Source: Candidatus Woesearchaeota archaeon
GTDB lineage: Archaea > Nanobdellota > Nanobdellia > Pacearchaeales > GW2011-AR1
Direction of reading: 5' to 3'
Assembly: GCA_964355135.1 (NCBI GenBank)
Contig: CAYHCG010000006.1
Location: forward strand, 9,453 to 73,452
Length of the DNA stretch: 64,000 bases
Part shown: positions 20,007 through 44,292 of the stretch, one piece after another
Layout: each line of letters starts with the position of its first letter
How positions within the stretch are numbered: position 1 is the first letter of the stretch
The notes under the pieces: generated by a model
Database searches by the model: none
Told to the model about the DNA's origin: nothing
The model's input: the letters and a program-made list of their open reading frames with translations, nothing else
Made by a program: the position numbers and the translations under genes

Positions 20007-20111
20007 CTCCAATCTTTAGATTGGAGTTATTTGCTGTCGATTTTTCCCGGTTCTCCCCAAATCCCTAGCAAACTCCACACTTTAGTGTGGAGTACAAATC
20101 CGAAGGATTTG
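20007..20111. repeat. three short hairpins, two of them a covarying pair CTCCANNC-TTTA-GNNTGGAG
   Basis: CTCCAATC-TTTA-GATTGGAG at 20007-20026. CTCCACAC-TTTA-GTGTGGAG at 20073-20092. CAAATCC-GAA-GGATTTG at 20095-20111. Confidence 0.6.
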
Positions 20112-20343
20112 GTGATATAAAAGAAAAATGGAGTTTTAACTGCTAAATTACTACTTATTATGTATGATAATATAACATGTAATAAGTAAGAAAGTTGGCA
20201 TTTTAAGCAACATTTATAAAGCAAAAATAACACTAAATAAGTATATTTTGGGGTGTAAAAACAATGTTAAATTTAGGGGCGCAAATAATTAGAAATTCCG
20301 AATTTTTTAATTCAAAATATTTTTATTTAATCTTTAAGAAAAG

Positions 20344-20380
20344 GGCTGTCCAAACACCCCAAAATTGTTTCTGGACAGCC
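20344..20380 (+). promoter_or_regulatory. 9-bp stem hairpin in the leader of the giant gene, followed by a T-rich run and a GGAGG RBS
   Basis: GGCTGTCCA (20344-52) pairs with TGGACAGCC (20372-80), then TCTTTTCTT. GGAGG lies about 7 nt upstream of the ATG at 20411. Confidence 0.5.
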
Positions 20381-20410
20381 TCTTTTCTTATGTGGAAAGG
20401 GAGGTTTTAG

Positions 20411-23400
20411 ATGTCTGAAAAGCTTAAAAGATTTAAGGAAAGAAATAACAGTTTAGCTGAAAGAATATTTTTAGCCCAGAGATATAAAAAAGAAGTAATA
20501 GAAAAAGTACAAAAACTGGTCGCAAAGTTAAATTCTGGAGAAATAACTCGTAAAGATTATGATGAAAGTCTACAGAAAATATTTGGAGTTAGAACACCAA
20601 AAGAATGGCTAACTTATTATGATAATTACATAGAGACTTATGAAAGACAATTAAGTGAAAGCAATAGACAACTTAACAAAGAAAAACTAAAGAAAGCAGC
20701 ATTTGTTTTTGTGCCTATATTTTTAGTTTTATTTTCAGTTATCTTTTTTGTTTATTTCTCAGATAGAGCAATTACGGGATTGGCTGTGCAAAACAGTAAA
20801 GAAGTTTTTACACAAAACATTAATTCCGAATTTAGTTCTAGTGGAAGTTATACTTTTGAGGTTAAACAGAGTGGGAAACTAAATTGGGCTAAAGTTTCCG
20901 GCAATATTGAAGGGGAAGGAAATGTTAAAATTTACTTATTGGCAAACGGAGGTGAGATTTTAGTTTTAGATAGTACTGATTTAGAAGTTGAAGAAGTTGC
21001 TTTAACTGGAGGAGTCATTACTGGATTTAATGTTGAAGGTGCCGAGGACTCTGGAGGAGAGTCTTCTGATAGTTCAAGCGGCGGCTCTTCAGGCAGTCAA
21101 GCAAGTACAGGCGATGTAAGCTCAACTAGTGGAGGAAGTTCTGAAGCTCCTTCACCAACTTCAGAAAGTACTAGCGAAACAACTTCTAGTAGTGATTCAA
21201 GTGAAAGCGCTTCAAGTCCACCTTCTGAGAATACTGTGGAAACTCCTGCAACTACGGAAAGTGAAACTCCTGTTGAAAGTAATGAAGTTAGCAGTGGGAC
21301 AACCTCTGAAGAAGTAATTGCGGGAAATGAATCGCAAAATAATGAGGAAACTAATGCTACTGGCGGTGAACCAACTCAAGAGAACACTACAGTTTCAGGG
21401 CAAACAACAACTAAAGAAAAGAAAAAGAAATTCTCAGATTATTGCAAAGAGAGTTGCGATTTGTCTAATTTGGAATTGGACAGAGATAGTTATGAATTGA
21501 GAGTTGAAATAAATGGGGCGGTAAAATTAAATCTAGATAAGATAAGATATGAGATAGAATTTGAGAAGACAGGAGAAATTATAACAGAAGAAAATGAAAC
21601 TGTACAGAACGAAACAAAAGAAATTACTCCTGAAATTGAATTAAACGAGACTCTTCCTGAGCTAAACCTTACTAATGTAAGTTCTGCTCCATTAATATTA
21701 AAACAAATCCCTAATCTTGAAATAGAAGTTAATTCAAGCTTTAATTTGACTTTAAGTGATTACTTTCTAAATGCCGAAGATTATGATATTAATAAAGTTG
21801 AGAACATTACTTTTGATCTTGCTGGAGATAATCTAGAGATTCTTCCTGATAAGGGCTTTTTGGGGAACAGAACTGCTGAAATAATTGCAGAGAATTCTTT
21901 TGGCAAAAATGAAAGCAATGAGTTTACAATTAATGTTGTTGAAAACATGCCCAAAATAGGAAATGCTACATCTAATATCACAACTTTACAGTATAAGGCG
22001 GTTATCAACAGACCAACTAAGTGGATTAAGATTTTGAACGCAACAGGGGGAGACTTAACTATTGAGCTTCCTAAGGAAGCGGAAAATATAACTGTAAAAA
22101 CGGGAAGCGATGTTGGCCTGGCCCTACAGGAATATGAGGATTATGAAGGGCTGGTTGATGGGGCTGACAAAGAAGATTTAATTTCAGGAGGGATAACGGG
22201 GAATGTAGCATTAGATCTTAAAGAAGGGAAGGGCCTTATACCAAGGTTTATTGATTGGCTGAAGAACTTGTTTTCTAAGGGGATAACTGGTAGAGCAATT
22301 ACGGAGCAAACTCTTGAAGCGCAAATAACCGAGACTAGTGAAAACACCATAGTCGATGTTACAGATATTGTAAATCAGACTCAAACTGGGGAAGTTGCAA
22401 TAGAGTATTACACTCAAGGGCCGGCAGCTAGAGAAGAAAATTTGACTAATGGGAAGAGAGTGGTTGTTTCTGGAAAAGATGAATTAAACTTTACGGATAT
22501 TTTGGCATTTGCAGAAATTGAAGAAAAAGTAGAAGTTGCGGATAGCAGTACAATAAAAATTTATTGGAGGGAAAACGCGAGTTTTATTAATTTTAGTGTA
22601 GGAGATTTGGATGGAAATGGGAAAATAGATTATATTGAATGGATCGTTCCTCATTTAAGCAACCAGACTTATGATATCATACTCATCACCCATGCAGAAC
22701 ATCTTGATAGTAACAGGACATTTATTTCTGATATATATGAAAGTGTTAGGGAATTAGATGGAAATTGGTCGGAGAGTATTGTTGACGGAGAGTATGTTAG
22801 GGTTACTTTTGAGAAGAATTTGACTAATGTTAACGATATCACTGTTTATGCTAAAGGAATAAACGGAACTGGACAAATAGAGGTTTATGAGTTTAATGAC
22901 ACACGTTTACTTGCGACATTCACTGATATACTTAATGAGACTTATTATAAGATTTATTTGACAAACTTAAGTAACTCGAGTAATTATTCACAAGGAGTTT
23001 TTGATTTACGAATTTTAAATGCCTCAGTGGAATTTGATTTAATTATTGATCCAACTTTGACTTTAAATGCTACTGGTGGAACGGGAACAAATACAACTGT
23101 TGAGGCAGGAAACTTTACACATTTGAGCATTGGAAGCTCAACTATTGGATTTGTTAATAATACCAATGTTGTTGCTTATTATCCTTTTGATACTAATACT
23201 TCTTCAAATACTGCCTTTGATTATTCCGCGAATAATTTAGATGCTGGTTTTATTAATACGGGGCCAAGATATGATGCAGGATTACTTGGAAACTCTTATT
23301 ATTTCAATAATTCAGTTTGCTTGAACACAACAAACAGTGCAGCATGGAATGTTACTAATCAGGTAACTCTTTCTGCTTGGGTTTATAGAAATAATAGTGA

Positions 23401-26400
23401 TACGGGCAGTGACTCTATTTTTATGCGAGGAGGCTCAGTTGTAGCAAATACTGAAATTGGTCTTGGAGTATTTCAATCTGGACTTTTAAGATTACTTATA
23501 AAAAATACTACACAGACTAATGCTGGAACATGTAACAGCGGTTCTGCATTACCTACCTTTAATTGGACTCATATTGCAGCGACGTATAATGGAACAACGT
23601 CTGTACTCTATATCAATGGTGTTGCAGAAACTCCTTGTACAGTTACTACTGGGAATATTATCTTTGCTGGAAACTCTCCTAGTATTGGTTGCCTCAAAAC
23701 AACGGCACAAGCATTTAACAACAATTGGCAAGGATGGATAGACGACTTAATGTTTTTGAATACCACTTTAAATGCAACACAAATTTCCCAAATTTATAAT
23801 AATCAAAGCTTGAGATTATTTTCTCGCGGAGAGCAGATATTTTCTAATTTAAATGGCTCGGGTAGTGGGGCTGAAGAAGAAATTAATATAAGGATAAATG
23901 CGAGCATGAATTTTGGCAGTTCGATAAATGTATCTTTAGGGAATTCTTCTGGAGGAACTTATGTTTATGGAAACGAATATGCTTTTAGCAATAATGTTGC
24001 AAATAATATTCCTTTAGGGACTCCAAATAATTATTCTTTAAAGTTTATATTTTATGCAGGTAATTCTTCTGCAAACTCTTTTATATCTCCTACTTTAGAG
24101 AATTATATTCTTGCTGAAAGCATTTTAGTAGTTCCTTCATTGACTTTGAATGCCCCGGCCAATGCAAGTACATTTAAAGAGGGAATATTTAATATAACTC
24201 TGAATGCAACTATTTTAGATAATGCGGCGACGTCAGCATATATTTACGGAGTTAATTCTTCTAACACTGCGAACTTTTACAAACATGGATTATTGTATCA
24301 GGCATTTGGCTTAGTAAATGGAACTCAAATAACTTACAATTGGACTTCTCCCGTAACTGTTCCTGATGCTTCTACTGTTGTCTTGTATCATTTGGATAAT
24401 AATTCTGTTTATGGGGAAAACCAAACTAGGGCTTGGGATTATGTTTCTGGAAATGTTAATTTAACTGCTGTTGGAAATGCTTTTCCAAATGTAAGTGGGG
24501 GGAAATTTGCTGGGGGATGGACTTTTGATGGAAGTGGAGATTATTTGAATGATGCCTCAAATATTGGAGCTTTAAATGGTTATTATCAATCCGGAACATT
24601 TTCTGCATGGGTTAAGAGAGCGGGAGCGAGTTCGAATGGATATGAAACTATAATTCAGGAAGGAGATAATACCAATGGTTTTGTGATAACAAATAATTGC
24701 GGATGGGATAATATGACTCAGGTCGGAACAGTATACATCCCAGAATTTGATCCTGTTGTTGTAATAGCAGAAACACCTAATAGTATTATTTCTGATGGAA
24801 ATTGGCATTTGATTACAGGCGTTTTTGATAATATCATTGCATTTAAACAATATATTTATGTTGATGGAGTACTTAGGAGTTCTGCAAGTGTGGGGGCGCC
24901 TAGTGATAGTGTTAAAGGAGTAAAGGTGGGAGGAGTACTGTCTTCCGTAGGGCAGAGTTGTGACGGAAGTGCAAATGCTGGCTCATTCAATGGAAGCATT
25001 GATGAAGTTGGAATTTGGAATAGGAGTTTAAGCGCAACTGAGATAATGAGCATGTATAGATTAAATGCACCGAAGTATTTTTGGAAAGTAAATGTTACGG
25101 ATTCTGTTGGAAATAGTAATGAGAGTGAGACACGCGAGTTTTATGTGAATCCTCAGACTGTTCCTTATACTGCATTGAATGGGCCTGCGAACAGGTCTAT
25201 ATTTTGGAAAGATATATTTAACATTACTTTGAATGCGACTGGTTATGATAATGATGATAGTTTTACTATTGAGATTTACGGGGCGAATTCTACAAATGCC
25301 ACTCTCTTTTATAATTATGGATTACTTTATAGACAGCAGGGAGTCAGTAATAATACGGCAGTTAGTTATAATTGGACTAATTCACTTGTAGATCCGGATA
25401 TTTATCTATATGCAGATGCCTTGTATCATTTAGATAATAATTCCAGATTAGGGGAGAATGATACAAGAGTGATTGATTCTTATACTGGAGATGGCGATGC
25501 TTTTAATTTAACACCTGTAGGAAACGCATATCCAAATATGACGGGAGGAAAATTTGCAGGGGCTTGGGAATTTGACGGAAATGGAGATTTTCTAAATGGT
25601 TCAAACTCTTTGCGCCCTGCCGGTGATCCTTCTTTTTCTGCATGGGTACGGCGAGCAGGAAATAGTTCAACTGGATATGAAACTATTGTTCAGGATAATG
25701 CAGGAAGTGGAGGGTATTCTTTAACTGCCAGCTGTAATAATAGTTTATTAGCGTTTTCAGCATATGATGGTACTTTGTTTGCAAAAGCTTCAACATCTAA
25801 TTCTATTCTCTCTGATGGTCAGTGGCATCATGTTTTGGGCATTCATAGTTCTTCTTACTCTAAAATTCTTTTATATGTTGATGGAGTTTTAAAAGCAAAT
25901 GCAACTTCATCAGTAGCTGTTCCGATAAACGATCCACATAAATTAGTTATAGGGGGTCATGGGGCAGGAGATTATGGTAGTGGTCCAGGAGGGACATCTT
26001 GTGTCTTTGGCGGCTCTTCTAGTGCAGGTTCATTCAACGGAAGTATTGATGAAGTTGCAGTCTGGAATAGCGATGTTTTTCAAATAGACACTGGCAGCGG
26101 TTTACATCTTAATACTAGTAATTTATATAAACTTATTAAAGGAAAATATTATTGGAAAGCAAACATTACTGATTCCTTGGGGAATAATAATGAAAGCGAA
26201 ACTCGCGAATTCGTTGTTAGGGATACGCCTTATGTTTTAGTGAATTCAAATATGAATTGCACCGACTTAAAGACTGAGGCTGTAAATTATTATTATGGTT
26301 ATTCTTGCACTGCTTCTGGGTATTCTACTTGTGTTGGACTAAATGCAGATTTGAATATTACAAATGGAACTTTGAGTGTTCCTTCAAATTGTAACATTCA

Positions 26401-29299
26401 ATTTAATCAAAGCAGTAATGGGCAGTATAGTTTTATTATTGAAGGAACTGGGAAATTGAATTTGAGCGGGGGGAATATTACCTCATCTTCTTCAACAAGT
26501 AGATTCAATTTAACTTCTTCAGTTGGAGTTATCAATTATCCTGGAAGTTATGGGAACTTTAGTTCTGCGAATGTTGTGGGGAGCGCTAATTTCTCTGATT
26601 CAAGAATTAATTTTTACAATTTTAATATAACTGGGCGGATGATAATTCTGAATTCGACGGATATCGCAACTACAGGGTATTCTATTGGTAGCGGGGGTAG
26701 ACTTGATAGGCAGTGGAGGTTGAATGTTACTGTTTTGGCCTCTGGCGCAGTAGTTTCAGGAGCAAATGTAACTGCAAGGAATGTTTCATTAAATATATTT
26801 GATTCTAAATCCACAGGTTCTGATGGCGCAGCCTGGCTTAATCTTTCAGAGTATGTAGATACTGGTTCGGGTAAAATGCATCAAAATAATTATACGATTA
26901 ATGTTACGAAGAATGGATATTTTGCAAACAGTACCACTATTAATTTGACTAGTGATAGTAGCAAATTGATAACCCTTGGAACGTATGATACCATTGAAGT
27001 TTCAAGTACTGAAACTTTACATGACGTATTTGCAAGAATTAACGATGTAACAATTTTTAATAATCTGAGTTCTGCATCTAGACCTTGCAGATATGTTGCT
27101 AGTGCATCGATAAATATCACTAGCGGGCATTTGGTTATGGAAGGATGTACCTTGGAGATGAATAGTAGCTTAGATAGTACTTATAAATTAATAGTTGGAG
27201 GTGGTCGATTGACTGCTAATTACTCAAATATAACTAGATTCGGATCTAATAATTACGACTTTTACACTGCGTCATCTGCGGCGACGCAGGTTGTTTTGAA
27301 GAATAGTTTTGTTTCAAGAGCGGGACACTTAAATTCTCCAAATTTGAGAGGTTTGACTTTGAATACAAATAATGTGACTTTTATTAATAATACTTTAGTT
27401 GATGCAGATGTTGCAAATTTAGAATTAGGAGCAAATGGAATAGTTGTTGAAAAATCTTTATTTTTGGGTCCTTCTGGAGTTACTAATTATCCTATTTTTG
27501 TGAGTGCTAATGATTCTATCATTTTAGATTCAAATTTGTCTGGTTCAACTGAAGAAGATGTGAGATTATCTTCTAGAACAAACATTACTTTTTTAAATAC
27601 AAATTATACGGATGAGGGTTTGGAAGCTGGAGCAGTTAATGTTTCCTTATTCAAAAAATGGTATGCGGGTGTTAGGGTTATAAATTCCAGCGGTGGCGGG
27701 GTTGAGAATGTAAACGTTACATTCTATAACAATAGCGGGAGTTTAACTCAAAGTGCATTGACAAATTCTTCTGGAGATATAGATACGCAGAATGTGACTC
27801 AATATGTTTCTAATGGGACAAACAGATTTTATCACACAAATTACAATATTACTGCAACAAAAGTAGATGGCATAAATGGTACAATAAATGTTAACATAAC
27901 CCAGAGTACCAATTATACAATTAGTCTTTCAACTTCTACACCAACAGTAACTTTTGTTTCTAGTATAGGAAGTGTAAATCCTTTGGGCGCAAGCGTCAGG
28001 AATATTACTTTTAACTTTACTGTCCAGCACGGAGACGGAGGGGAATATATCAACATTACAAGTTCTAAGGCTAATTTTACTTACGGAACGGAACCAATTA
28101 GATTAAACGACACTTGTAACTTACTGACAGATCAAAATACATCCACTACTCGAAACTTTACTTGTACTATTGGAATGTGGTATTTTGACGTTGCTGGAGA
28201 TTGGAATGTAAGCATTTATGTTGCAGATACGAGAGGTAATTCTACAACAAATATAACTACATTTACTTATGCAACATTACAGGATTTTGTTGTTTCCCCG
28301 ACATTGGTCACATTTGGAACTATAAGTCCTATTGATGTCAATAAGACTCCCTCAAATGATCCTTGGATATTGAATAATACCGGAAATTATGATCCGGTAA
28401 ATATTTCTATAGTCGCATTAAACTTACATGGGGAGACGACACAGTCGGAGTTTGTAGGGGCAGGTAACTTTAGCGCGTCTAATAATACGAGCTCCCCACC
28501 TTCTCCTTTGGAATGTAGCGGAAATTCTTTAATTAACGGTACAAATGTGAACATAACTAATGCTATTTTACCTAGGGGAAATAATTCTCTGAATTATGTT
28601 AATTCGACAAGTGGGCAAGAACAGTTATATCTCTGCCTTAAACAAATTCCTTCTGCGCTTTCGCAGCAGACTTATTCCACAAGTGGAGCGGGGGCTTGGT
28701 CAATCAGGATTTTAGTTGGCGTCTTTGCAGTTGGAGGAGGAATAAACAGAAAGAGAAAAAAGAAGTCGAACAAGCATAATAATTTGCTGGAGCTTGATGC
28801 TGAAAACATACTCGAGGTGCTGGATAAAAGATTAAGAGAGACTTACGAATTAGGATTAAATGAGATATTAGATATTGCAAGGAAGAGAAATGCAAAGAAG
28901 GAAACCAATAGGGAAGTAAAGAAAGAAATAAAGATACCAATTGAGGTGTTCAGTCAGAAAATTGGAATTTCAGAATCAATCTGCAAGTATCTTAGGGATA
29001 ATCTCCATTTAAGATATAACGAAATCTCCAGAGTGGTAGGCAGAGATCAAAGAACTGTTTGGAATAATTATAGAAATGCAAATAAGAAGATGAATGAAGA
29101 AATTAAAGTCAATGAGAAAACCATGTATATTCCAATGAAGGCATTTTTGAATAATAAATTAAGTATGCTTGAAAGTGCAATCTTTTACCTTAGAGAAGAG
29201 AGATATAGAAATATAGAAATTGCTTCTATGCTTGGAAAGGATCCAAGAAACATTTGGACCATATATAATAGGGCGAAGAGAAAAACTAATGGTAATTAA
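20411..29299 (+). CDS. giant surface protein A (2962 aa)
   Basis: N-terminal ~95-aa cytoplasmic domain, then a TM (aa ~96-116, nt 20696-20758) and a Ser/Thr/Glu-rich linker. LamG/ConA-like motifs follow (WTHIAATYNGTTSVLYINGV; SFNGSIDEVGIWNRSLSATEI; GSIDEVAVWNS). After a beta-helix-like region (~26230-27900) and a terminal Ig-like module containing MWYFD come the hydrophobic segment AWSIRILVGVFAVGGGI (about 28694-28744), RKRKKK and the HTH tail. GGAGG RBS. Confidence 0.9.
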   Translation: MSEKLKRFKERNNSLAERIFLAQRYKKEVIEKVQKLVAKLNSGEITRKDYDESLQKIFGVRTPKEWLTYYDNYIETYERQLSESNRQLNKEKLKKAAFVFVPIFLVLFSVIFFVYFSDRAITGLAVQNSKEVFTQNINSEFSSSGSYTFEVKQSGKLNWAKVSGNIEGEGNVKIYLLANGGEILVLDSTDLEVEEVALTGGVITGFNVEGAEDSGGESSDSSSGGSSGSQASTGDVSSTSGGSSEAPSPTSESTSETTSSSDSSESASSPPSENTVETPATTESETPVESNEVSSGTTSEEVIAGNESQNNEETNATGGEPTQENTTVSGQTTTKEKKKKFSDYCKESCDLSNLELDRDSYELRVEINGAVKLNLDKIRYEIEFEKTGEIITEENETVQNETKEITPEIELNETLPELNLTNVSSAPLILKQIPNLEIEVNSSFNLTLSDYFLNAEDYDINKVENITFDLAGDNLEILPDKGFLGNRTAEIIAENSFGKNESNEFTINVVENMPKIGNATSNITTLQYKAVINRPTKWIKILNATGGDLTIELPKEAENITVKTGSDVGLALQEYEDYEGLVDGADKEDLISGGITGNVALDLKEGKGLIPRFIDWLKNLFSKGITGRAITEQTLEAQITETSENTIVDVTDIVNQTQTGEVAIEYYTQGPAAREENLTNGKRVVVSGKDELNFTDILAFAEIEEKVEVADSSTIKIYWRENASFINFSVGDLDGNGKIDYIEWIVPHLSNQTYDIILITHAEHLDSNRTFISDIYESVRELDGNWSESIVDGEYVRVTFEKNLTNVNDITVYAKGINGTGQIEVYEFNDTRLLATFTDILNETYYKIYLTNLSNSSNYSQGVFDLRILNASVEFDLIIDPTLTLNATGGTGTNTTVEAGNFTHLSIGSSTIGFVNNTNVVAYYPFDTNTSSNTAFDYSANNLDAGFINTGPRYDAGLLGNSYYFNNSVCLNTTNSAAWNVTNQVTLSAWVYRNNSDTGSDSIFMRGGSVVANTEIGLGVFQSGLLRLLIKNTTQTNAGTCNSGSALPTFNWTHIAATYNGTTSVLYINGVAETPCTVTTGNIIFAGNSPSIGCLKTTAQAFNNNWQGWIDDLMFLNTTLNATQISQIYNNQSLRLFSRGEQIFSNLNGSGSGAEEEINIRINASMNFGSSINVSLGNSSGGTYVYGNEYAFSNNVANNIPLGTPNNYSLKFIFYAGNSSANSFISPTLENYILAESILVVPSLTLNAPANASTFKEGIFNITLNATILDNAATSAYIYGVNSSNTANFYKHGLLYQAFGLVNGTQITYNWTSPVTVPDASTVVLYHLDNNSVYGENQTRAWDYVSGNVNLTAVGNAFPNVSGGKFAGGWTFDGSGDYLNDASNIGALNGYYQSGTFSAWVKRAGASSNGYETIIQEGDNTNGFVITNNCGWDNMTQVGTVYIPEFDPVVVIAETPNSIISDGNWHLITGVFDNIIAFKQYIYVDGVLRSSASVGAPSDSVKGVKVGGVLSSVGQSCDGSANAGSFNGSIDEVGIWNRSLSATEIMSMYRLNAPKYFWKVNVTDSVGNSNESETREFYVNPQTVPYTALNGPANRSIFWKDIFNITLNATGYDNDDSFTIEIYGANSTNATLFYNYGLLYRQQGVSNNTAVSYNWTNSLVDPDIYLYADALYHLDNNSRLGENDTRVIDSYTGDGDAFNLTPVGNAYPNMTGGKFAGAWEFDGNGDFLNGSNSLRPAGDPSFSAWVRRAGNSSTGYETIVQDNAGSGGYSLTASCNNSLLAFSAYDGTLFAKASTSNSILSDGQWHHVLGIHSSSYSKILLYVDGVLKANATSSVAVPINDPHKLVIGGHGAGDYGSGPGGTSCVFGGSSSAGSFNGSIDEVAVWNSDVFQIDTGSGLHLNTSNLYKLIKGKYYWKANITDSLGNNNESETREFVVRDTPYVLVNSNMNCTDLKTEAVNYYYGYSCTASGYSTCVGLNADLNITNGTLSVPSNCNIQFNQSSNGQYSFIIEGTGKLNLSGGNITSSSSTSRFNLTSSVGVINYPGSYGNFSSANVVGSANFSDSRINFYNFNITGRMIILNSTDIATTGYSIGSGGRLDRQWRLNVTVLASGAVVSGANVTARNVSLNIFDSKSTGSDGAAWLNLSEYVDTGSGKMHQNNYTINVTKNGYFANSTTINLTSDSSKLITLGTYDTIEVSSTETLHDVFARINDVTIFNNLSSASRPCRYVASASINITSGHLVMEGCTLEMNSSLDSTYKLIVGGGRLTANYSNITRFGSNNYDFYTASSAATQVVLKNSFVSRAGHLNSPNLRGLTLNTNNVTFINNTLVDADVANLELGANGIVVEKSLFLGPSGVTNYPIFVSANDSIILDSNLSGSTEEDVRLSSRTNITFLNTNYTDEGLEAGAVNVSLFKKWYAGVRVINSSGGGVENVNVTFYNNSGSLTQSALTNSSGDIDTQNVTQYVSNGTNRFYHTNYNITATKVDGINGTINVNITQSTNYTISLSTSTPTVTFVSSIGSVNPLGASVRNITFNFTVQHGDGGEYINITSSKANFTYGTEPIRLNDTCNLLTDQNTSTTRNFTCTIGMWYFDVAGDWNVSIYVADTRGNSTTNITTFTYATLQDFVVSPTLVTFGTISPIDVNKTPSNDPWILNNTGNYDPVNISIVALNLHGETTQSEFVGAGNFSASNNTSSPPSPLECSGNSLINGTNVNITNAILPRGNNSLNYVNSTSGQEQLYLCLKQIPSALSQQTYSTSGAGAWSIRILVGVFAVGGGINRKRKKKSNKHNNLLELDAENILEVLDKRLRETYELGLNEILDIARKRNAKKETNREVKKEIKIPIEVFSQKIGISESICKYLRDNLHLRYNEISRVVGRDQRTVWNNYRNANKKMNEEIKVNEKTMYIPMKAFLNNKLSMLESAIFYLREERYRNIEIASMLGKDPRNIWTIYNRAKRKTNGN
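28745..29296 (+). other. C-terminal tail of giant A with two sigma70-region-4/LuxR-like HTH units
   Basis: Unit 1 is about 28928-29092 (ISESICKYLRDNLHLRYNEISRVVGRDQRTVWNNYRNANKK). Unit 2 is about 29124-29290 (LSMLESAIFYLREERYRNIEIASMLGKDPRNIWTIYNRAKRK). Compare the sigma r4 pattern LS..E..V..L....G.S..EIA..LG.S..TV....hRA..KL. Confidence 0.65.
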
Positions 29300-32572: not shown

Positions 32573-33553
32573 ATGAAAAAGGGGATAAAATGGAGGCATG
32601 TTGCTTTTCTAGGCGCTGCTTTGACTATGTTGTTTATTGTTGGAATGAGTTTTGCTTCTGCTGGAATTGTGGATTGGTTTGGGAAGGTGACTGGACACGC
32701 TACTTCACAAGATACTAACGTAACGGTTACAGTTTCTGGGACTACTGCTGTCACGATTGAAGTTTTGAACAGCACTCTAACGGGAGTTAATCCAACATCT
32801 GACAGCACGACTGCTGTTACCTTAACAGTTAGAGTTACCGATGCGGACGGGTATTTGGATATTAATACAACAAGCGTTCATGCTAACTTTACAAAGTCCG
32901 GAGAGGCCATAAGATCCAATAGTTCTTGCGTTGATCTTGCGCAGAATACGGCTACAGCTAAGAATTTTTCCTGTATCCTTTCTATGTGGTATTTTGACGG
33001 CAGCGGAATCTGGTCTATAACCGCTGCGGGAAGAGATTTAGGAAACACGACGCTAGTACAAAATACAACTAGTGTTTTTACATATGGCACTTTACAAGAA
33101 ATAAAAATGAGTCCTAATCAGATAACTTTTGCCTCTGTTGCGCAGGGAGCAGTCAATATAACTTCAGATAACGATCCTACTTTGATAAATAACAGCGGAA
33201 ACTATAATTTTGTAGGAGTCAATATCACTGCTGTAAATCTTAGGGGAGAAACTAATACTACTGTTTTCATCAATGTAGGTAATATTACAATAGGAAATAA
33301 TACTCATGCTTCGAATAAATATGAGTGCGATGTTGCTCCAGTTTTAGGTTCAAATGCTACCGCACTAGTGAATGGAACAACAGTTAATGTAAAGCACAGC
33401 GTTATTAGTAAGGGGAATAATTCTGTTAACGATGGGACAACTGGTCAGGAGCAGATTTATTATTGTTTTAGAACTATTCCAACAGGCATACTTTCACAAG
33501 CATATTCGACAGCTTATACAGGAGGAGCGTGGGTTGTTTCCGCGAATGTATAA
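32573..33553 (+). CDS. secreted Ig-like protein, stand-alone paralog of the terminal MWYFD module of the giants
   Basis: Signal peptide ...MSFASAG. NFSCILSMWYFDGSGIWSITAAGRD and GQEQIYYCFRTIP...AYST parallel giant A (NFTCTIGMWYFDVAGDWNVSIY; GQEQLYLCLKQIP...TYST). Confidence 0.8.
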   Translation: MKKGIKWRHVAFLGAALTMLFIVGMSFASAGIVDWFGKVTGHATSQDTNVTVTVSGTTAVTIEVLNSTLTGVNPTSDSTTAVTLTVRVTDADGYLDINTTSVHANFTKSGEAIRSNSSCVDLAQNTATAKNFSCILSMWYFDGSGIWSITAAGRDLGNTTLVQNTTSVFTYGTLQEIKMSPNQITFASVAQGAVNITSDNDPTLINNSGNYNFVGVNITAVNLRGETNTTVFINVGNITIGNNTHASNKYECDVAPVLGSNATALVNGTTVNVKHSVISKGNNSVNDGTTGQEQIYYCFRTIPTGILSQAYSTAYTGGAWVVSANV

Positions 33554-33554
33554 A

Positions 33555-34094
33555 ATGAATAAATATCGATTGCTTATCTTGCTCTGTGTATTGTCTGTAA
33601 TTGGCTTGAGTGTAAATGCTAATGCTGTCGGGATTGCATATAATGACTTTTTATGCCCGGATAGACCCATTATTCTATATGAAGGCGAAGAGAGAACTGT
33701 AAGCTTATGGCTACAGAATTCCAATGTCGAAGATGAAAAAGTCAGAGTAAAGATTCTTAACAATGAAGAAGGAATTATCGACATTAACGAAAAAGATTAT
33801 GTAGTAGAAGCTGGAACATATGATACTGAACTGAAGTTCAAGCTAAGAATTCCAGAAAATGTTTCACTAGGGACTCGCTATGATATGGTTCTTAATTTCT
33901 TAAATGTTCCAATGGAAGAAACTGGCGGAATAGCACTAACTACGGCAATGAATGTAAATGTCTGTGTCCAGGTTGGAGAATACGTCGCCACATCGCCTCC
34001 TCCAGGATTTAGTACAACTACATGGATTATCTTGGCGATAATAGCAGTAGTAATTTTAGCGGCAATTATAATTTTCATAAGAAAAAAGAAATAG
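33555..34094 (+). CDS. small secreted beta-sandwich protein with C-terminal TM and basic tail (family member 1)
   Basis: Start set at MNKYRLL. Signal peptide. CPDRP...NVCVQV Cys pair. C-terminus WIILAIIAVVILAAIIIFIRKKK. Paralogous to 34133.. and 40648... Confidence 0.75.
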   Translation: MNKYRLLILLCVLSVIGLSVNANAVGIAYNDFLCPDRPIILYEGEERTVSLWLQNSNVEDEKVRVKILNNEEGIIDINEKDYVVEAGTYDTELKFKLRIPENVSLGTRYDMVLNFLNVPMEETGGIALTTAMNVNVCVQVGEYVATSPPPGFSTTTWIILAIIAVVILAAIIIFIRKKK

Positions 34095-34132
34095 TTAAAC
34101 AGTTTTAAATATTGAAGAGGATTAGTTAGATT

Positions 34133-34690
34133 ATGAAGAGGAAAATTTTATTATGTCTCATTTTATTGTTGAGCTTGCTATTTGTAAGAAATGTCTTGGC
34201 ATTCGGTGTGGCTTATGCTGATTTTAGATGTCCTGACAATCCTCTAAAATTATTTCCGGGTCAGGAAAAGATAACTAGCCTATGGCTGCAAAACATGGCC
34301 GATGATGATGCAAGTGTCGCCGTTATTCTTAGAGAGGGCGCAGGCATAGCTGAAATGGAAACTCAAAATTACCTGGTCAAATCTAAAACAGAGGATACTA
34401 GCGTTCCTATCACTTTTAAAATTCCTGAAGATGAACCTATAGGTGCGAATCATACCGTTGTTATCGCTTTTGATACTATAATAGATGGAGAAAGCGGAGG
34501 AGTTGCTATCGGAACAGGAATGGACGTTAAAGTCTGTGTTCAGATTGTACCAGAGTATCCTGTTGAACTCTCTCCTGTGGATAAAGAAAGTGGGAAAGCA
34601 TGGTACTATGTGATTGGATTCGTGATTTTAGCTGCATTAATTGTAGTTTTTGTGGTAAGAAGAAAGAGGGCAAATAAGTCTTTGAGGTAA
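34133..34690 (+). CDS. small secreted beta-sandwich protein with C-terminal TM and basic tail (family member 2)
   Basis: Signal peptide. AYADFRCPDNP...GGVAIGTGMDVKVCVQIV aligns with the preceding gene. C-terminus YYVIGFVILAALIVVFVVRRKR. Confidence 0.75.
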   Translation: MKRKILLCLILLLSLLFVRNVLAFGVAYADFRCPDNPLKLFPGQEKITSLWLQNMADDDASVAVILREGAGIAEMETQNYLVKSKTEDTSVPITFKIPEDEPIGANHTVVIAFDTIIDGESGGVAIGTGMDVKVCVQIVPEYPVELSPVDKESGKAWYYVIGFVILAALIVVFVVRRKRANKSLR

Positions 34691-34824
34691 ATCATATAAA
34701 TTAAGCTCTAATTAATACAGAATAAGACAAATCTAATACGTTTTAATGGAGAAAAAGGCTTAAAATGGTAAGTTTTATATAGCATTTTTCATACAATATA
34801 AGCATAAGAGAGCTTAATATTGCA

Positions 34825-37800
34825 ATGACTGAAAAAATTGATTTTCTAAATGAGAAAAGAAAGGAATTACTGGAAAGAATTAATGTTGCGCAAAATTACA
34901 AAAAAGAAGTTGGCGAAAAAGTTCAGAAACTTGCAGCAAGATTTAGCATAGGAGAACTGAATTTTTTTGAGTATCATCAGGAACTGAAGAAAAATTTTGG
35001 AGATAAGTCGCCTGCTGATTGGATCGAGTACTATGACAAGTATATTGAAAAGTGCCGCACGGAGCTTAAAAAGTGCGGCGAAGAAATAAACGAGTTGAGA
35101 ATAAAAAAAGTTGCAAGATTTTCTCCTTTGATTTTGGTTATTTTTATCTTTGCACTAGTTCTTTATTATAATTTTAAAGATAGTTCTATCTTACTTTCAC
35201 CTTCCGAAATATTCACTGAAAAAATAAATTTTGTGGCTAGTGAAGATGGTTCATTTATGTTTGAGCCACAACAGGGAGGGAGACTTAGCAGTTTGAGAAT
35301 TTCAGGAGATATTAATGGAGGAGGAAATGTTAAAATTTATCTCCAAGCGAATGGAAATGAATTATTGATTTTAGATAGCGACGCTATAGGGTATAAAGGA
35401 ATAAGCGGGCTTGCAATAGAAGAATTCGATAGAGTTCTTGATGAAAATGAAAGTATTGAGAAAAATGCAACTATTTTAGTGGAAGAGAATATTGAAACTA
35501 TTGAAGTTAACGATAGTTTAGATGATATAGAAAATAAAACTGAAGCTAACTCAGAAATCAAAAAAGGATTTGTTAATTATTGCAATGAAACTTGTGATTT
35601 AGACAGTATTGATTTAGGAGACTCTTATGAAATAAAAATTGTGATAGGGGGAGAGGCCGAGGTTATAATTGAGGAGATTAACTATAAGATTACTAAGAAA
35701 GAGGTAAGAGAAGATATCGAAATAGAAACTCCTAGAAATGAGACAAATCAGACTGTAGTTAGAGATATAGAAAAAATTGAAAGAAAAAATGCACAAGGAA
35801 AAGAAGTAGTTGTGAAGAAAAAGCAAGGCGAGAAAAATATAATTGTAGAGACTACAGTTCCTATTGAGTGGAACGTGAAAGACGCAGGAAAAATCAGAGT
35901 AAGATGGAAAGAAGGAGGAGAAGAAATTAATTTTAATGGTGAAGATACAAATAATGACGGAATTATCGATAGTATTACTTGGGTTGTCAGTGATCTAGAA
36001 AGAGATCAAACTTATGAAATTATTGTGATCACAAAAGCAGAACATCTTGATACTGATAGAAGTTTTGTTAGTGATATTTACGATTTAGTTAAAGAGCAAG
36101 ATGGAGTTTGGAGTGAGAGTATTGGGGATGGAGAGTATGTAAGAGTTACTTTTGAAATCCCCCTTGATAGTACGAGAGATATAACACTCTGGTCTAGAAC
36201 GGTGAGTGGGAATCCTCGCGTTGAAGTGTATGAAACAAATGGAAATGTAACAGTTGCTTCATTTGAAAGTTTGAATGATGACGAATATAATAAGGTTTAT
36301 TTGACGGGACTTTCTGGAACACAAGAGACATTTGATTTGAGAGTTGTTGATGGTTCAATTGAACTCGATCATGTTATTGATCCTTATTTTTCTGATAAGG
36401 TTAAACTGTATTTTAATAATACTGCTACTCCAATTGGAGGAGCATGTCCTACTGGAAATAAAAAAATGGGAACTGCTGCACCCAACTCTGTTGTTATAAT
36501 CTGGCCTGGAGAGTTTGACAGCGGTGTTCCTGGGAATACGGATGCAGGGCAGTGGTATTCTGGGAGTGTTAACAGAGCAAATACGACATTATCTACTCAA
36601 ATTGCTAGCGCTACCCAGAGTTCAAGAAATTCAAATAGCTTCGGGCAGGGATGGATGTACGATGAGGATTTGACAGGACTGACTTTAGATGCAGGAAACT
36701 TTAGTTTTAATCTTTCTTTGATGGGTGGGCAGATGTCTGCAATAAACAGCGCAGAAAGGATCTTTGCCAGAATAAGTGTTGTTAATTGTAATGGTGGGAA
36801 TTTTAATTTAGTGCAAGATCTCACATCGACCAATATTGTTGGGGAAATAAGTCATACTGGGGGTCAAAACGGGTGGAAGGCAAATGAGGGAGGAAGAATA
36901 AACCATCCAGCTGTTTCTGCCGTCGTAAATGTCAATGTTAATTTTTCAACAAATCCTTATACATTCAAAAATGGGGAGATGTTGTTTATAGAATTGGGAT
37001 TTGGAGATGCTAGTAGCAACATTGATAGAACTATAGGATTGAGATACAATATTGCAAATTCTTTTGTTGTGACTCCTCCGTTTTTAGATAATACTCTGCC
37101 TTATGCTATTTTGAATGAACCTATGAATGACTCTAGATTTGTGGTAGGCGTATTTAACATTTCATTGAATGCAACAGTTGCTGATGAAACTATTTCTGAC
37201 TTGCTAAATGGGGAAATTTATGGGGTGAGAAACGGAAATGAGGCAGATTTTTACAAACATGGATTATTGAGTCGGAGATTTAATTTTACTAATGGAACGC
37301 AGGCGGTTTATAACTGGACTGCTCCTGTTGTAATTCCTGATGCTTCTACTGTTGTATTGTATCATTTAGATAATAATTCAAGATACGGAGAGAGTCAGAC
37401 CGAAGCAGTAGATTATGTTTCCGCGAATGTTAATTTAACTCCCGTCGGGAATGCTTTTCCTAATCAGACTAGCGGAAAGTTTGCAGGAGGGTGGGAATTT
37501 GACGGAAACGGAGACTACTTGGGTGATGCTTCCAATTTAGGGGCATTAAACGGAGTGGATAATGCAACTTTTGCTGCGTGGATAATGAGGGCTGGAGCAA
37601 GTTCTACGGGTCTAGAAGTTATTGTTCAGGAAGGTGGGCAGGGCAGAGGATTGGCACTGATTGCGAACTGCAACAATAACATGATGCAGTTTGGGGTAAA
37701 AGAAGGAGGCGTTTATTATGCTGCTAATGCATCTACTTTCTTGCTTAATGATGAGAACTGGCATCACTTGGCCGGAGTGTATGATGGGGATGCAGACACT

Positions 37801-40646: not shown

Positions 40647-40647
40647 T

Positions 40648-44258: not shown

Positions 44259-44292
44259 ATGTAAATTTTAAATAGATAGCTTATTGTTTAGT

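What the first reader, a model, noticed from the sequence alone, without database searches (positions are those of the whole stretch)
20411..29299. Giant surface protein A appears anchored at both ends and carries a tandem HTH tail
Seen in sequence:
- A ~95-aa charged N-terminal domain is followed by a clear TM helix (nt 20696-20758).
- About 2,650 aa of sequon-rich LamG, beta-helix and Ig-like modules follow.
- A short hydrophobic segment AWSIRILVGVFAVGGGI comes next, followed by INRKRKKK.
- The protein ends in a 185-aa tail with two ~55-aa units. Their cores (LSMLESAIFYLREERYRNIEIASMLGKDPRNIWTIYNRAKRK) match the sigma70 region 4 / LuxR HTH pattern.

Inference: both termini are cytoplasmic, so a huge extracellular loop is physically coupled to a DNA-binding module. 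This could be a membrane-tethered transcription factor, released by intramembrane proteolysis or acting as a one-component surface sensor. I do not know of a described system like this.

Caveat: the C-terminal hydrophobic segment is only 16-17 aa, contains an Arg, and partly overlaps the last Ig strand. Topology is therefore not certain.
Basis: partly seen in the sequence, partly recalled or inferred. Interest (0 to 1): 0.9.

Follow-up and report, generated by a model that had tools for sequence, protein, structure and literature searches.

The report
Giant archaeal surface protein with DNA-binding tail
A 2,962-residue surface protein of a tiny symbiotic (DPANN) archaeon ends in a pair of DNA-binding domains that probably sit inside the cell and bind a conserved DNA motif at the gene's own promoter, so the cell may regulate (or sense through) its giant attachment proteins directly from the membrane.

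Summary
ORF 20411-29299 encodes a conserved helical N-terminal domain, a strong TM helix, a ~2,650-aa sequon-rich ectodomain, a short hydrophobic stretch, a polybasic cluster and a 185-aa tail with two sigma-70-region-4-like HTH units.

It is not an assembly artefact. A paralog in the window (34825-39702) has the same architecture. A tail profile finds 2,188 representative proteins. 68 of 82 related loci, almost all Woese-/Pace-/Nanoarchaeota, carry the fusion.

New findings:
- **Split form.** Some genomes encode the whole tail as a soluble protein. Its gene overlaps the start of the surface-protein gene, which then ends exactly before the hydrophobic and polybasic junction.
- **Promoter motif.** An 18-bp motif (ATACATAcATAATAAGTA) flanks the TATA box of genes encoding this HTH module and is nearly absent elsewhere.
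- **Sequons.** N-glycosylation sequons are 2.3-fold enriched in ectodomains but not in tails.

Best reading: a membrane-tethered, probably autoregulatory transcription regulator built into a giant adhesin-like protein. DNA binding and topology are inferred, not shown.

Caveat: the second membrane-crossing segment is abnormally short across the family (about 10-14 residues, against 22 for TM1).

It is a new variant of the known class of transmembrane transcription regulators. I found no description of it in the searched literature.

The parts
20152..20243 (+). Promoter of gene A. It has three copies of the family-specific 18-bp motif: 20152-20169 on the minus strand, and 20171-20188 and 20226-20243 on the plus strand. 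A TATA-like TTTATAAAG lies at 20213-20221.
   Evidence: - repeat finder D1 (two copies, spacing 55) and palindrome I5.
- The PWM hit of 13.1 bits at 20152-20169 is the only hit of 12 bits or more in the 64-kb window.
- Same motif-TATA-motif layout as in about 25 related loci.
20339..20385 (+). Hairpin in the ~165-nt 5' leader of gene A, followed by a T-rich run and a GGAGG Shine-Dalgarno-like site at 20400-20404. Most relatives look leaderless instead.
   Evidence: Inverted repeat I4, 19-nt arms, 79% complementary; sequence read; motif-to-ATG distances of relatives.
20411..29299 (+). Gene A, 2,962 aa: N-cyt domain, TM1, giant ectodomain, short hydrophobic segment, polybasic cluster, tandem-HTH tail.
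20411..20695 (+). N-terminal cytoplasmic domain (aa 1-95): a three-helix hairpin / coiled coil, conserved at the N-terminus of the family.
   Evidence: - AlphaFold2 pLDDT 92.2, helices 3-41, 47-58 and 63-99.
- The HMM hits the N-terminus of 25 of 29 complete fused proteins in genome loci.
- Foldseek finds only generic helical hairpins.
20696..20758 (+). TM1, a canonical signal-anchor helix (aa 96-116).
   Evidence: KD 2.93. The family median uncharged run is 22 aa.
20759..28696 (+). Ectodomain (aa 117-2762). It contains three LamG/ConA-like modules: aa 974-1126 from the Pfam best stretch, and about aa 1336-1560 and 1690-1900 estimated from the BLAST repeats and the Laminin_G_2/Pentaxin hits. 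It ends in a conserved two-domain Ig-like cassette (about aa 2508-2768).
   Evidence: Pfam; BLAST against paralog B; 149 sequons; AlphaFold2 beta-sandwich.
28697..28765 (+). Junction. W2763-I2778 comprises the last Ig strand WSIRIL plus VGVFAVGGGI. The polybasic RKRKKK follows at aa 2780-2785. This is the presumed stop-transfer / second membrane crossing.
   Evidence: - KD 1.57.
- AlphaFold2: strand at aa 2764-2768, then coil with pLDDT <50.
- Family pattern W-(11..19 aa)-polybasic in 134 sequences, median 14.
- Uncharged run median 10 aa.
28766..28930 (+). Helical linker of the tail (aa 2786-2840), homologous to the N-terminal part of the stand-alone HTH proteins.
   Evidence: Alignment A1. 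AlphaFold2 helices at model residues 180-195 and 199-218.
28934..29089 (+). HTH unit 1 (aa 2842-2893).
   Evidence: AlphaFold2 pLDDT >90.
29129..29284 (+). HTH unit 2 (aa 2907-2958), the unit that matches Sigma70_r4_2 best.
   Evidence: - Pfam, tail residues 153-195.
- AlphaFold2 pLDDT ~95.
- Foldseek local matches: SigR region 4 (5fgm, prob 1.00, rmsd 1.7 A), EnfR (8hnp, prob 0.99, rmsd 0.8 A), sigmaE region 4 on DNA (2h27).
34690..34804 (+). Promoter of paralog B. Variant motif copies lie at 34690-34707, 34711-34728 and 34787-34804, around a TATA-like TTTTATATAG at 34773-34782.
   Evidence: Sequence read and compared by eye with the B-like locus L033. The copies fall below the PWM threshold, so this is weaker than for gene A.
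34825..39702 (+). Paralog B (1,625 aa) with the same architecture. N-cyt and TM1 at the start; WQIELFTAALVLSGSVG followed by RKRKRK from nt 39133 (polybasic from 39190); HTH units at nt 39328-39483 and 39520-39675.
32573..34690 (+). Conserved accessory genes found downstream of family genes in many loci. One is a ~310-aa secreted two-Ig cassette protein (32573-33553). Two are ~190-aa proteins with a signal peptide and a canonical C-terminal anchor (33432-34094, 34133-34690). A second set follows gene B (39741-40646, 40621-41220, 44284-45951).
   Evidence: phmmer of window ORFs against locus ORFs gives 50-128 hits each; sequences.

Best explanation
Gene A, and its paralog B, encode a giant adhesin-like surface protein of a DPANN archaeon (Woesearchaeota/Pacearchaeota-type).

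**Proposed layout.**
- The polypeptide starts in the cytoplasm with a helical-hairpin domain.
- It crosses the membrane once through a canonical TM helix.
- It displays about 2,650 glycosylated residues outside.
- It re-enters through an unusually short hydrophobic segment held by a polybasic stop-transfer cluster.
- It ends in the cytoplasm with a tandem pair of sigma-70-region-4 / Tfx-type HTH domains.

**Proposed function.** The tail is a sequence-specific DNA-binding module. Its most likely target is the conserved 18-bp element ATACATAcATAATAAGTA. One copy lies upstream of the TATA box. Another lies between the TATA box and the start of the very genes that encode the module. The protein would therefore be a membrane-tethered transcription regulator that controls its own, very costly, synthesis. 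The site between TATA and start suggests autorepression. One regulator domain is made per surface protein.

**Shown:** the architecture, its conservation, the fused and split forms, the fold of the units, and the specificity of the motif for these promoters.

**Inferred:** the N-in/C-in topology, DNA binding to that motif, the sign of regulation, and any coupling to host contact or proteolysis.
For: **The architecture is real and conserved.**
- The paralog in the window has the same layout.
- A tail profile finds 2,188 representative proteins at E<=1e-3.
- 91 of 153 sequences analysed carry W-hydrophobic-polybasic directly before the HTH units.
- 68 of 82 loci carry the fusion, nearly all in Woese-/Pace-/Nanoarchaeota MAGs.

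**The tail has an HTH fold.**
- Pfam Sigma70_r4_2 scores above threshold, and 58 of 61 homologs hit it.
- AlphaFold2 gives pLDDT >90 for both units.
- Foldseek local matches include SigR region 4, sigmaE region 4 on -35 DNA, and the archaeal regulator EnfR.

**The tail is probably cytoplasmic.**
- Stand-alone homologs of the whole tail (about 170-240 aa) have no signal peptide or TM.
- Their genes overlap the start of a gene for a membrane or surface protein in 10 of 10 complete cases (L002 and nine genome loci). Eight of these have a cytoplasmic helical N-terminus of 60 aa or more before the TM, and five of them also hit the N-cyt HMM. A further locus, L083, has two such pairs with signal-peptide proteins downstream.
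- In L037 and L070 that surface protein stops right after the ...W-x-I-x-V strand. The hydrophobic and polybasic junction therefore appears only when a tail has to be connected. Small secreted Ig-cassette proteins end at the same point.
- Sequons are 2.26-fold over expectation in ectodomains (4.6 per 100 aa). In tails they are 0.86-fold (0.55 per 100 aa) over 120 proteins.

**The motif looks like an operator.**
- There are 70 PWM hits of 12 bits or more in 802 kb, against 15.2 +/- 3.9 in local shuffles.
- All 52 plus-strand hits of 17 bits or more lie upstream of family genes, or at a contig end just after one (L048).
- The layout is motif-(N15-33)-TTTATAAG-(N6-7)-motif-ATG. Spacing is mostly 51-53 nt.
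- The motif also sits upstream of stand-alone HTH genes that were not used to build the PWM: L002, L037, L039, L045, L056 and L083.
- Reverse test: of 80 metagenome loci with an exact 18-mer match, 19 have a family gene starting within 140 nt downstream. One more (L137) has the match at a contig end just after a family gene.
- In the window, the only hit of 12 bits or more is upstream of gene A. The third giant gene (52104-61103) has neither N-cyt, tail nor motif.
Against: - The second hydrophobic segment is too short for a standard TM helix across the family. The uncharged run before the polybasic cluster has a median of 10 aa (IQR 8-12) and a best 19-residue KD of 1.09. TM1 has 22 aa and 2.68. 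Ordinary C-terminal anchors in the same window are 19-23 aa.
- Part of that segment is the last strand of the Ig domain, and AlphaFold2 predicts no helix there.
- No dedicated topology predictor was available.
- No direct evidence links the HTH to the motif. Another factor could bind it, or it could be a family-specific core-promoter variant. It resembles a BRE/TATA element.
- In the window itself the motif copies are degenerate. Gene A's best copy scores 13 bits and gene B's copies fall below the PWM threshold. Window-wide hit counts are not above shuffles.
- Foldseek and PDB-sequence E-values are weak: none at or below 1e-3, and EnfR at E=0.025.
Confidence: 0.55

Rival explanations
1. Host-contact signalling by release. 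The protein is a juxtacrine sensor. Binding of the LamG/Ig ectodomain to a host surface triggers cleavage within or near the short, Gly/Pro-rich hydrophobic segment. The freed HTH tail then regulates the attachment-gene island, in the manner of Notch/SREBP or RsgI-SigI. This extends the best explanation rather than contradicting it.
For: - The architecture is sensor-like, with carbohydrate-binding-type modules outside and a DNA-binding module inside.
- The hydrophobic segment is short and rich in helix-breaking G/P (VGVFAVGGGI...AVIPA...VPF...).
- The soluble split form shows the module can work untethered.
- The N-cyt domain and the tail co-occur in 25 of 29 complete fused proteins.
Against: - No intramembrane protease (S2P, rhomboid) was found among the window ORFs scanned.
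- No cleavage-site motif was identified.
- Membrane-bound regulators such as ToxR/CadC and ArnR act without release (PMC10269533, PMC6396743).
- Nothing here measures a signal.
Confidence: 0.2
2. The tail is cytoplasmic but is not the factor that reads the 18-bp motif. It could serve as a protein-protein docking module, for example for the N-cyt hairpin or for clustering the giant proteins. It could also be a non-specific DNA/nucleoid tether. The motif would then be a family-specific promoter element read by general factors or by another regulator.
For: - Sigma region 4 is also a protein-interaction surface in bacteria (established knowledge).
- The N-cyt domain is a coiled-coil hairpin suited to docking.
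- The motif resembles a BRE/TATA-like sequence, and a half-motif ATACATA often sits at the BRE position.
Against: - The recognition-helix region (RDxRTIWTxY / RDQRNIWTIYSRAxKK) is the most conserved part of the tail.
- The motif travels with the HTH gene, not with the surface-protein gene, in split loci. This holds in loci whose downstream surface protein did not hit the N-cyt HMM (L056, L083).
- There are tentative matching changes in unit-1 helix and motif 3' end: RTIW with AAGTA, and RTIS/RTIG with AAGAC/AAGCG/AAGCT.
Confidence: 0.15
3. The hydrophobic segment does not cross the membrane. The tail is extracellular, for instance binding extracellular or host DNA. The hydrophobic and polybasic stretch would be an interfacial or sorting element.
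For: - The segment is only about 10-14 residues and overlaps an Ig strand.
- Canonical anchors in the same genome are about twice as long.
Against: - No sequon enrichment in tails.
- Stand-alone homologs lack export signals.
- The junction is present only in fusions.
- A strong, invariant positive cluster follows the hydrophobic stretch immediately, consistent with the positive-inside rule (established knowledge).
- The promoter-specific motif implies access to the chromosome.
Confidence: 0.08
4. Assembly chimera or mis-called fusion of two genes.
For: None found. One homolog (L001) and one locus (L038) are interrupted, but only by scaffold gaps (runs of N).
Against: - There is a continuous frame with no internal stop.
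- A second copy lies in the same window.
- The same junction occurs in 91 representative proteins and 68 loci from independent assemblies.
Confidence: 0.01

Closest known systems
Transmembrane transcription regulators (TTRs): ToxR/TcpP/CadC in bacteria, ArnR/ArnR1 in Sulfolobus (PMC10269533, PMC6396743)
   Same: One polypeptide carries a DNA-binding domain and membrane-spanning segment(s), with an extracytoplasmic part. The regulator is thought to act on DNA from the membrane. ArnR/ArnR1 likewise regulate surface structures in an archaeon.
   Different: - Classical TTRs have an N-terminal winged-helix or HTH domain, one or two TMs and a small sensor.
- Here the DNA-binding module is C-terminal, tandem and sigma4-type.
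- The 'sensor' is a 1,000-5,700-aa adhesin-like ectodomain.
- The second crossing is abnormally short.
- The family is DPANN-specific and has a soluble split form.
- The TTR survey text mentions neither DPANN nor Sigma70_r4.
ECF sigma / anti-sigma pairs, including RsgI-SigI with carbohydrate-binding ectodomains
   Same: - A sigma-region-4-type HTH.
- In the split form, the HTH gene lies immediately upstream of, and overlaps, a gene for a protein with a ~95-aa helical cytoplasmic N-domain, one TM and an extracytoplasmic domain. This is the classic sigma then anti-sigma operon layout.
- Autoregulated promoters are typical of ECF systems.
   Different: - There is no sigma region 2 (only r4 hits).
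- Archaea have no bacterial RNA polymerase core for a sigma to bind (established knowledge).
- The N-cyt domain does not resemble anti-sigma domains. Foldseek finds only HlyD/AcrA/occludin-like hairpins, and there is no Zn-binding motif.
- The units are duplicated in tandem.
Tfx / EnfR family of archaeal regulators (EnfR: PMC10570040; PDB 8hno/8hnp)
   Same: The closest solved archaeal HTH: rmsd 0.8-0.9 A over 43 residues, 32% identity. It is the top PDB sequence hit. It shows that sigma4-like HTH domains act as sequence-specific regulators in archaea.
   Different: - Matches fall below family thresholds (NCBIfam Tfx, EnfR and PRK03975 hits sub-threshold).
- EnfR has one HTH plus a distinct C-terminal domain, is soluble and is not tandem.
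Membrane-tethered transcription factors activated by proteolysis (Notch, SREBP, ATF6)
   Same: A large extracellular or luminal part is covalently coupled through the membrane to a transcription-factor domain. Helix-destabilising residues occur in the membrane segment.
   Different: Those are eukaryotic and unrelated in sequence. Cleavage is their defining step, and there is no evidence for it here.
C-terminal membrane anchors and sorting signals of archaeal surface proteins (TM plus basic tail; PGF-CTERM/archaeosortase)
   Same: A hydrophobic stretch followed by a Lys/Arg cluster at the end of a glycosylated ectodomain. Neighbouring genes in the window have exactly such anchors.
   Different: - The segment is not at the C-terminus, because 185-400 aa follow it.
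- It is about half as long.
- No PGF-type motif is visible in the junctions listed.

Membership tests
Transmembrane transcription regulator (TTR, as defined in PMC10269533) | Predicted DNA-binding domain in the protein | tested here: met
   - Sigma70_r4_2 at 31.1 bits, above the 25.7 cutoff, for the tail alone.
- 58 of 61 homologs hit the family.
- AlphaFold2 and Foldseek support a sigma4-like fold.
Transmembrane transcription regulator (TTR, as defined in PMC10269533) | At least one predicted transmembrane region | tested here: met
   TM1 at aa 96-116, KD 2.93. This was judged by hydropathy only, because no TM predictor was available.
Transmembrane transcription regulator (TTR, as defined in PMC10269533) | DNA-binding domain located on the cytoplasmic side | tested here: inconclusive
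   Comparative evidence favours it. The second crossing segment is atypically short and AlphaFold2 does not predict it as a helix.
Sigma-70 family / ECF sigma factor | Region 2 (core-binding and -10 recognition) together with region 4 | tested here: not met
   Pfam and NCBIfam align only region 4. ECF model positions ~100-165 matched, with scores far below cutoffs, for example SigX4 at 31 against 323 bits.
Sigma-70 family / ECF sigma factor | Partner bacterial-type RNA polymerase core | not tested
   The organism is archaeal: an intron-containing tRNA, deoxyhypusine synthase and TrmB, and DPANN relatives. That archaea lack sigma-dependent polymerase is established knowledge. It was not checked in this genome.
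Class I anti-sigma factor (for the N-cyt domain plus TM plus ectodomain) | N-terminal anti-sigma domain fold (helical bundle, often HxxxCxxC zinc site) | tested here: not met
   - AlphaFold2 gives a three-helix hairpin.
- Foldseek's top 50 are generic coiled-coil hairpins, with no anti-sigma entry.
- There is no Cys in aa 1-95.
- Pfam gives only sub-threshold PAH/TAFH/SHOCT-like hits.
Class I anti-sigma factor (for the N-cyt domain plus TM plus ectodomain) | Gene immediately downstream of, and co-transcribed with, its sigma-like partner | tested here: met
   This holds in the split form only. The HTH gene overlaps the start of the N-cyt-TM gene in L002, L037, L045, L060 and L070 (HMM or alignment). 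The same holds with similar architecture in L034, L039 and L068.
Tfx / EnfR archaeal regulator family | Score above the NCBIfam model cutoffs (TIGR00721 Tfx, NF053597 EnfR, PRK03975) | tested here: not met
   Only the relative P0014 hits them, and below cutoff: 23.5 against 115 bits, 22.5 against 260, 10.7 against 60. Local structural similarity to EnfR is good.
Proteolytically released membrane-tethered transcription factor | Regulated cleavage that frees the DNA-binding domain | not testable with these tools
   No protease candidate was found among the window ORFs scanned. This needs proteomics or western blots.
PGF-CTERM / archaeosortase-type sorting signal | Signature motif plus TM plus short basic tail at the extreme C-terminus | tested here: not met
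   The junction is followed by 184 further residues in gene A. No PGF motif is visible in the 91 and 68 junctions listed.

The most novel reading that the evidence does not exclude
DPANN archaea use their giant adhesins as direct contact sensors. Engagement of the ectodomain with a host cell changes the state of the covalently attached tandem-HTH tail. This could happen by cleavage at the unusually short, Gly/Pro-rich membrane segment, or by rearrangement against the N-terminal hairpin. The change would switch the conserved 18-bp-operator promoters of the attachment-gene island. That would be a Notch-like, single-protein juxtacrine signalling pathway in archaea. The abnormally short crossing segment would be a functional feature of it.
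Probability: 0.2. Interest if true: 0.9.

Novelty: new variant of a known kind. Interest (0 to 1): 0.75.

Why it matters
**Host sensing in DPANN archaea.** How these ultra-small, host-dependent archaea sense and regulate attachment is essentially unknown. They also have few recognisable signalling systems.

**A concrete, testable circuit.** This family offers a defined DNA-binding module, a defined 18-bp candidate operator with fixed promoter geometry, and natural fused and split versions. All of it is attached to the proteins most likely to touch the host.

**A possible answer to a published puzzle.** 'Sigma-70' genes without anti-sigma factors were reported in Woesearchaeota (PMC8204110). 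Those may be region-4-only HTH modules of this kind. I could not verify that the published family is the same one.

**Membrane biology.** A 10-14-residue hydrophobic segment conserved as the apparent membrane crossing of hundreds of proteins is an oddity worth resolving.

**Regulatory design.** Tying one regulator domain to each copy of a 3,000-aa product is an unusual way to meter an expensive protein.

Tried and rejected
- **Word-indexed protein search with the tail alone** found only 2 relatives. The exhaustive profile search was needed.
- **Word-indexed search with the N-cyt alignment** found nothing. The distribution of the N-cyt domain outside the fetched loci is therefore unknown.
- **Model coordinates are not exposed**. 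An intramolecular N-cyt/tail contact could not be examined, and a full-length prediction was not attempted.
- **Anti-sigma-domain hypothesis for N-cyt** was rejected on fold.
- **Chimeric assembly** was rejected.
- **PGF-CTERM-like sorting signal** was rejected because of position and the absence of a motif.
- **Supplementary tables of PMC8204110** did not contain fam00359 in the held text. The link to the published 'sigma factors' stays unverified.
- **The listing of cluster members** gave no names or taxa for soluble four-unit proteins.
- **PWM scan of the window.** Overall hit numbers are not above shuffles. Only the single top hit upstream of gene A is notable. Gene B's copies were recognised by eye and by comparison with L033.
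- **The palindromes CTCCANNCTTTAGNNTGGAG** upstream of gene A are unique to that spot and unrelated to the family motif.
- **PDB sequence searches** gave only marginal hits.


Full report
**1. What is in the window.**
- ORF 20411-29299 (+) is uninterrupted and encodes 2,962 aa.
- Hydropathy gives one outstanding TM helix at aa 96-116 (KD 2.93). The second-best segment is aa 2760-2778 (KD 1.57), followed by RKRKKK.
- Pfam finds three Laminin_G_3 stretches (E=3e-43) and Laminin_G_2.
- When the last 199 aa are scanned alone, Sigma70_r4_2 scores 31.1 bits, above the curated 25.7.
- The ectodomain has 149 N-X-S/T sequons and a net charge of -132. The tail has none and a net charge of +17.
- The window is archaeal. 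It has an intron-containing tRNA at 12286-12407, deoxyhypusine synthase and a TrmB regulator.

**2. It is a family, not an accident.**
- A second gene in the window (34825-39702, 1,625 aa) has the same N-terminal domain, TM, LamG block, Ig cassette, WQIELFTAALVLSGSVG-RKRKRK junction and two HTH units.
- A third giant gene (52104-61103) has neither the N-terminal domain nor the tail.
- A profile of four tails finds 2,188 representative proteins at E<=1e-3 among 1.84 billion, and 659 at E<=1e-30.
- I analysed 153 sequences (the best 150, P0002, and genes A and B).
  - 91 have the pattern ...YST..G.W-x-I-x-I, a few more hydrophobic residues and then a polybasic cluster, directly before the HTH units.
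  - 86 have two units, 5 have three and 62 have four.
  - Lengths reach 5,919 aa.
- In one-genome-per-species contigs, 189 stretches encode a relative. The 80 best are almost all Woesearchaeota, Pacearchaeota or Nanoarchaeota MAGs.
- 68 of 82 HTH-bearing ORFs are fused behind long ORFs.

**3. The tail.**
- AlphaFold2 on aa 2618-2962 with 26 sequences gives mean pLDDT 78.8.
- Both HTH units score above 90. Each has a short strand (IPxxIF) followed by four helices.
- Foldseek E-values for the multi-domain query are weak (none at or below 1e-3), but the local matches are consistent:
  - SigR region 4 (5fgm, prob 1.00, rmsd 1.7 A over 49 columns).
  - SigmaE region 4 on -35 DNA (2h27).
  - AlgU.
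  - The archaeal regulator EnfR (8hnp, prob 0.99, rmsd 0.8-0.9 A, 32% identity).
- EnfR is a characterised Thermococcus repressor (PMC10570040).
- Only region 4 is present. No region 2 appears in any scan. This is not a sigma factor.

**4. Topology: the evidence for and the problem.**

Evidence for a cytoplasmic tail:
- Homologs of the entire tail exist as soluble 170-240-aa proteins without signal peptide or TM.
- In those split loci the partner surface protein ends exactly after the ...W-x-I-x-V strand (L037, L070). Small secreted two-Ig proteins do the same. The hydrophobic and polybasic junction therefore occurs only where a tail must be connected.
- Over 120 family proteins, sequons are 2.26-fold above compositional expectation in ectodomains and 0.86-fold in tails.
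- The polybasic cluster immediately after the hydrophobic stretch fits the positive-inside rule (established knowledge).

The problem:
- The segment is very short everywhere. From W to the polybasic cluster the median is 14 aa.
- The uncharged run before the cluster has a median of 10 aa (IQR 8-12), against 22 aa for TM1.
- Canonical C-terminal anchors in neighbouring genes are 19-23 aa.
- AlphaFold2 puts SIRIL in the Ig domain and leaves aa 2770-2795 as low-confidence coil.
- I rate C-in at about 0.8. How the chain crosses the membrane is unexplained.

**5. The N-terminal domain and the split form.**
- The first ~95 aa form a confident three-helix hairpin (pLDDT 92.2) that runs into TM1.
- Foldseek finds only generic hairpins such as HlyD, AcrA and occludin, and no anti-sigma domain.
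- Pfam gives only sub-threshold PAH/TAFH/SHOCT-like hits.
- Its HMM hits the N-terminus of 25 of 29 complete fused proteins in the genome loci.
- Split form: in L002 and all nine complete stand-alone genome loci, the HTH gene is immediately followed, usually with overlap, by a membrane or surface protein gene.
  - Eight of the ten have a cytoplasmic helical N-terminus of 60 aa or more before the TM (L002, L034, L037, L039, L045, L060, L068, L070).
  - Four of these hit the N-cyt HMM (L037, L045, L060, L070). L002 aligns with genes A and B.
  - Sources.
- In a 49%-GC lineage (L083) two such pairs lie in tandem. There the downstream surface proteins have signal peptides instead.
- The gene order resembles ECF sigma / anti-sigma operons. 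The defining folds are not met.

**6. A conserved operator-like motif.**
- Upstream regions of family genes share ATACATAcATAATAAGTA, with near 2 bits at most positions.
- The arrangement is motif-(N15-33)-TTTATAAG-(N6-7)-motif-ATG.
- The second copy ends 0-1 nt before the ATG in many loci, which suggests leaderless mRNAs. Copy spacing is mostly 51-53 nt, with a second class at 33-34 nt.
- A PWM from 25 fused-gene instances gives 70 hits of 12 bits or more in 802 kb, against 15.2 +/- 3.9 in local shuffles.
- All 52 plus-strand hits of 17 bits or more lie upstream of family genes, or at a contig end just after one (L048).
- The motif also lies upstream of stand-alone HTH genes that did not contribute to the PWM: L002 (3 copies), L037 (6), L039 (4), L045, L056 and L083.
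- Reverse test. An exact-pattern scan of metagenome contigs returned 80 loci.
  - In 19, a gene with the N-cyt domain and/or HTH units starts within 140 nt downstream.
  - In one more (L137), the match sits at a contig end just after a family gene.
  - Sources. Family genes are a vanishing fraction of all genes, so this is far above chance.
- In the window, gene A has copies at 20152-20169 (-), 20171-20188 (+) and 20226-20243 (+), around TTTATAAAG at 20213-20221.
  - Unusually, a ~165-nt leader follows, with a hairpin (20339-20385) and a GGAGG site.
- Gene B has degenerate copies around a TATA-like box.
- The motif contains a direct repeat ATAnnTA 11 bp apart (ATACATA ... ATAAGTA). That would suit two head-to-tail HTH units on one face of the helix. 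This is my reading of the consensus, not a test.
- Lineages with RTIS/RTIG instead of RTIW in unit 1 have AAGAC/AAGCG/AAGCT instead of AAGTA. This is suggestive, but it may reflect a single evolutionary event.

**7. Mechanism proposed.**
- The tandem HTH is a sequence-specific regulator of the promoter that drives its own gene or operon.
- In the fused form, one regulator is made per giant protein and held at the membrane. A ~60-aa helical linker could let it reach DNA in a very small cell, as other membrane-bound regulators do (PMC10269533).
- A site between TATA and start is the usual position of archaeal repressors (established knowledge), so autorepression is the simplest output. The upstream site could add activation or cooperativity.
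- Whether the ectodomain state, the N-cyt hairpin or proteolysis modulates this is open.

**8. Relation to known systems.**
- By definition it is a transmembrane transcription regulator (DNA-binding domain plus TM; PMC10269533). Archaeal precedents exist (ArnR/ArnR1, PMC6396743).
- It differs in domain type (tandem sigma4-like), position (C-terminal after a second crossing), the giant adhesin-like loop, the odd crossing segment and the natural split form.
- PMC8204110 reported 'sigma-70' genes prevalent in Woesearchaeota with no anti-sigma factors and an unclear role. These may be the present HTH modules, but I could not verify the family identity.
- No paper in the searched library describes the architecture.

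**9. Limits.**
- No topology predictor, no DNA-protein modelling and no access to model coordinates were available.
- The motif-HTH link is associative.
- The sample of loci is biased toward the closest 80 relatives.

Noticed in passing
window 20007-20110: Two near-identical 20-nt palindromes CTCCANNCTTTAGNNTGGAG lie at 20007-20026 and 20073-20092, with 0.03 matches expected by chance. A third palindrome, CAAATCCGAAGGATTTG, lies at about 20094-20110. They sit between the upstream metallopeptidase-like gene and the gene A promoter. They could be terminators, a small RNA or another operator.
   Followed up: partly
window 20339-20404: Gene A has a ~165-nt leader with a 19-bp-stem hairpin followed by a T-rich run and a GGAGG site. 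Most relatives start translation 0-1 nt after the second motif copy and look leaderless. This may be an extra layer of control, such as attenuation.
   Followed up: no
window 32573-34690, 39741-41220, 44284-45951: A conserved accessory gene set travels with family genes in many DPANN loci.
- A ~310-aa secreted protein made only of the two-Ig cassette, ending at the ...W-x-I-x-I strand.
- ~190-aa proteins with a signal peptide and a normal TM anchor.
- A 555-aa anchored protein.

The Ig cassette gives weak Foldseek matches to donor-strand-exchange fibre subunits (FimA/FimG, CanA cannulae, archaeal bundling pili; E 0.03-0.5).
   Followed up: partly
window 52104-61103: A third giant gene (2,999 aa) has an N-terminal TM but lacks the N-cyt domain, the HTH tail and the promoter motif. 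It serves as a useful internal negative control. It has almost no Pfam matches.
   Followed up: partly
window 42321-44258 (+) and 47737-50634 (-): Two surface-island proteins end in Hint / pretoxin-HINT domains (PF07591, E=2e-14 and 5e-10) at their extreme C-termini. No toxin module follows.
   Followed up: no
window 29411-32209: Two genes sit between gene A and its accessory genes. One is a minus-strand 452-aa anchored protein without Pfam hits. The other is an AAA_14/DUF4143 ATPase. Homologs of both genes also lie downstream of the closest relative of gene A in locus L003.
   Followed up: partly
L037 5719-5917; L060 ~5800-6000: Some split-form promoters carry arrays of the motif. L037 has six copies with a 32-nt period. 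L060 has 63-nt tandem repeats containing variant copies.
   Followed up: no
P0131, P0055, P0067, P0085 (family proteins): Some giant relatives have two N-cyt domains in tandem before the TM. 62 of 153 family sequences have four HTH units instead of two. Copy numbers of the two cytoplasmic modules both vary.
   Followed up: no
window 19540-19944: A 134-aa protein matching 'putative phage metallopeptidase' (PF18894, E=1e-17) lies directly upstream of the gene A promoter. It is not conserved next to family genes in the fetched loci.
   Followed up: partly
window 12286-12407 (-): A 122-nt tRNA match was found by Rfam but not by ARAGORN. It is presumably an intron-containing archaeal tRNA.
   Followed up: no
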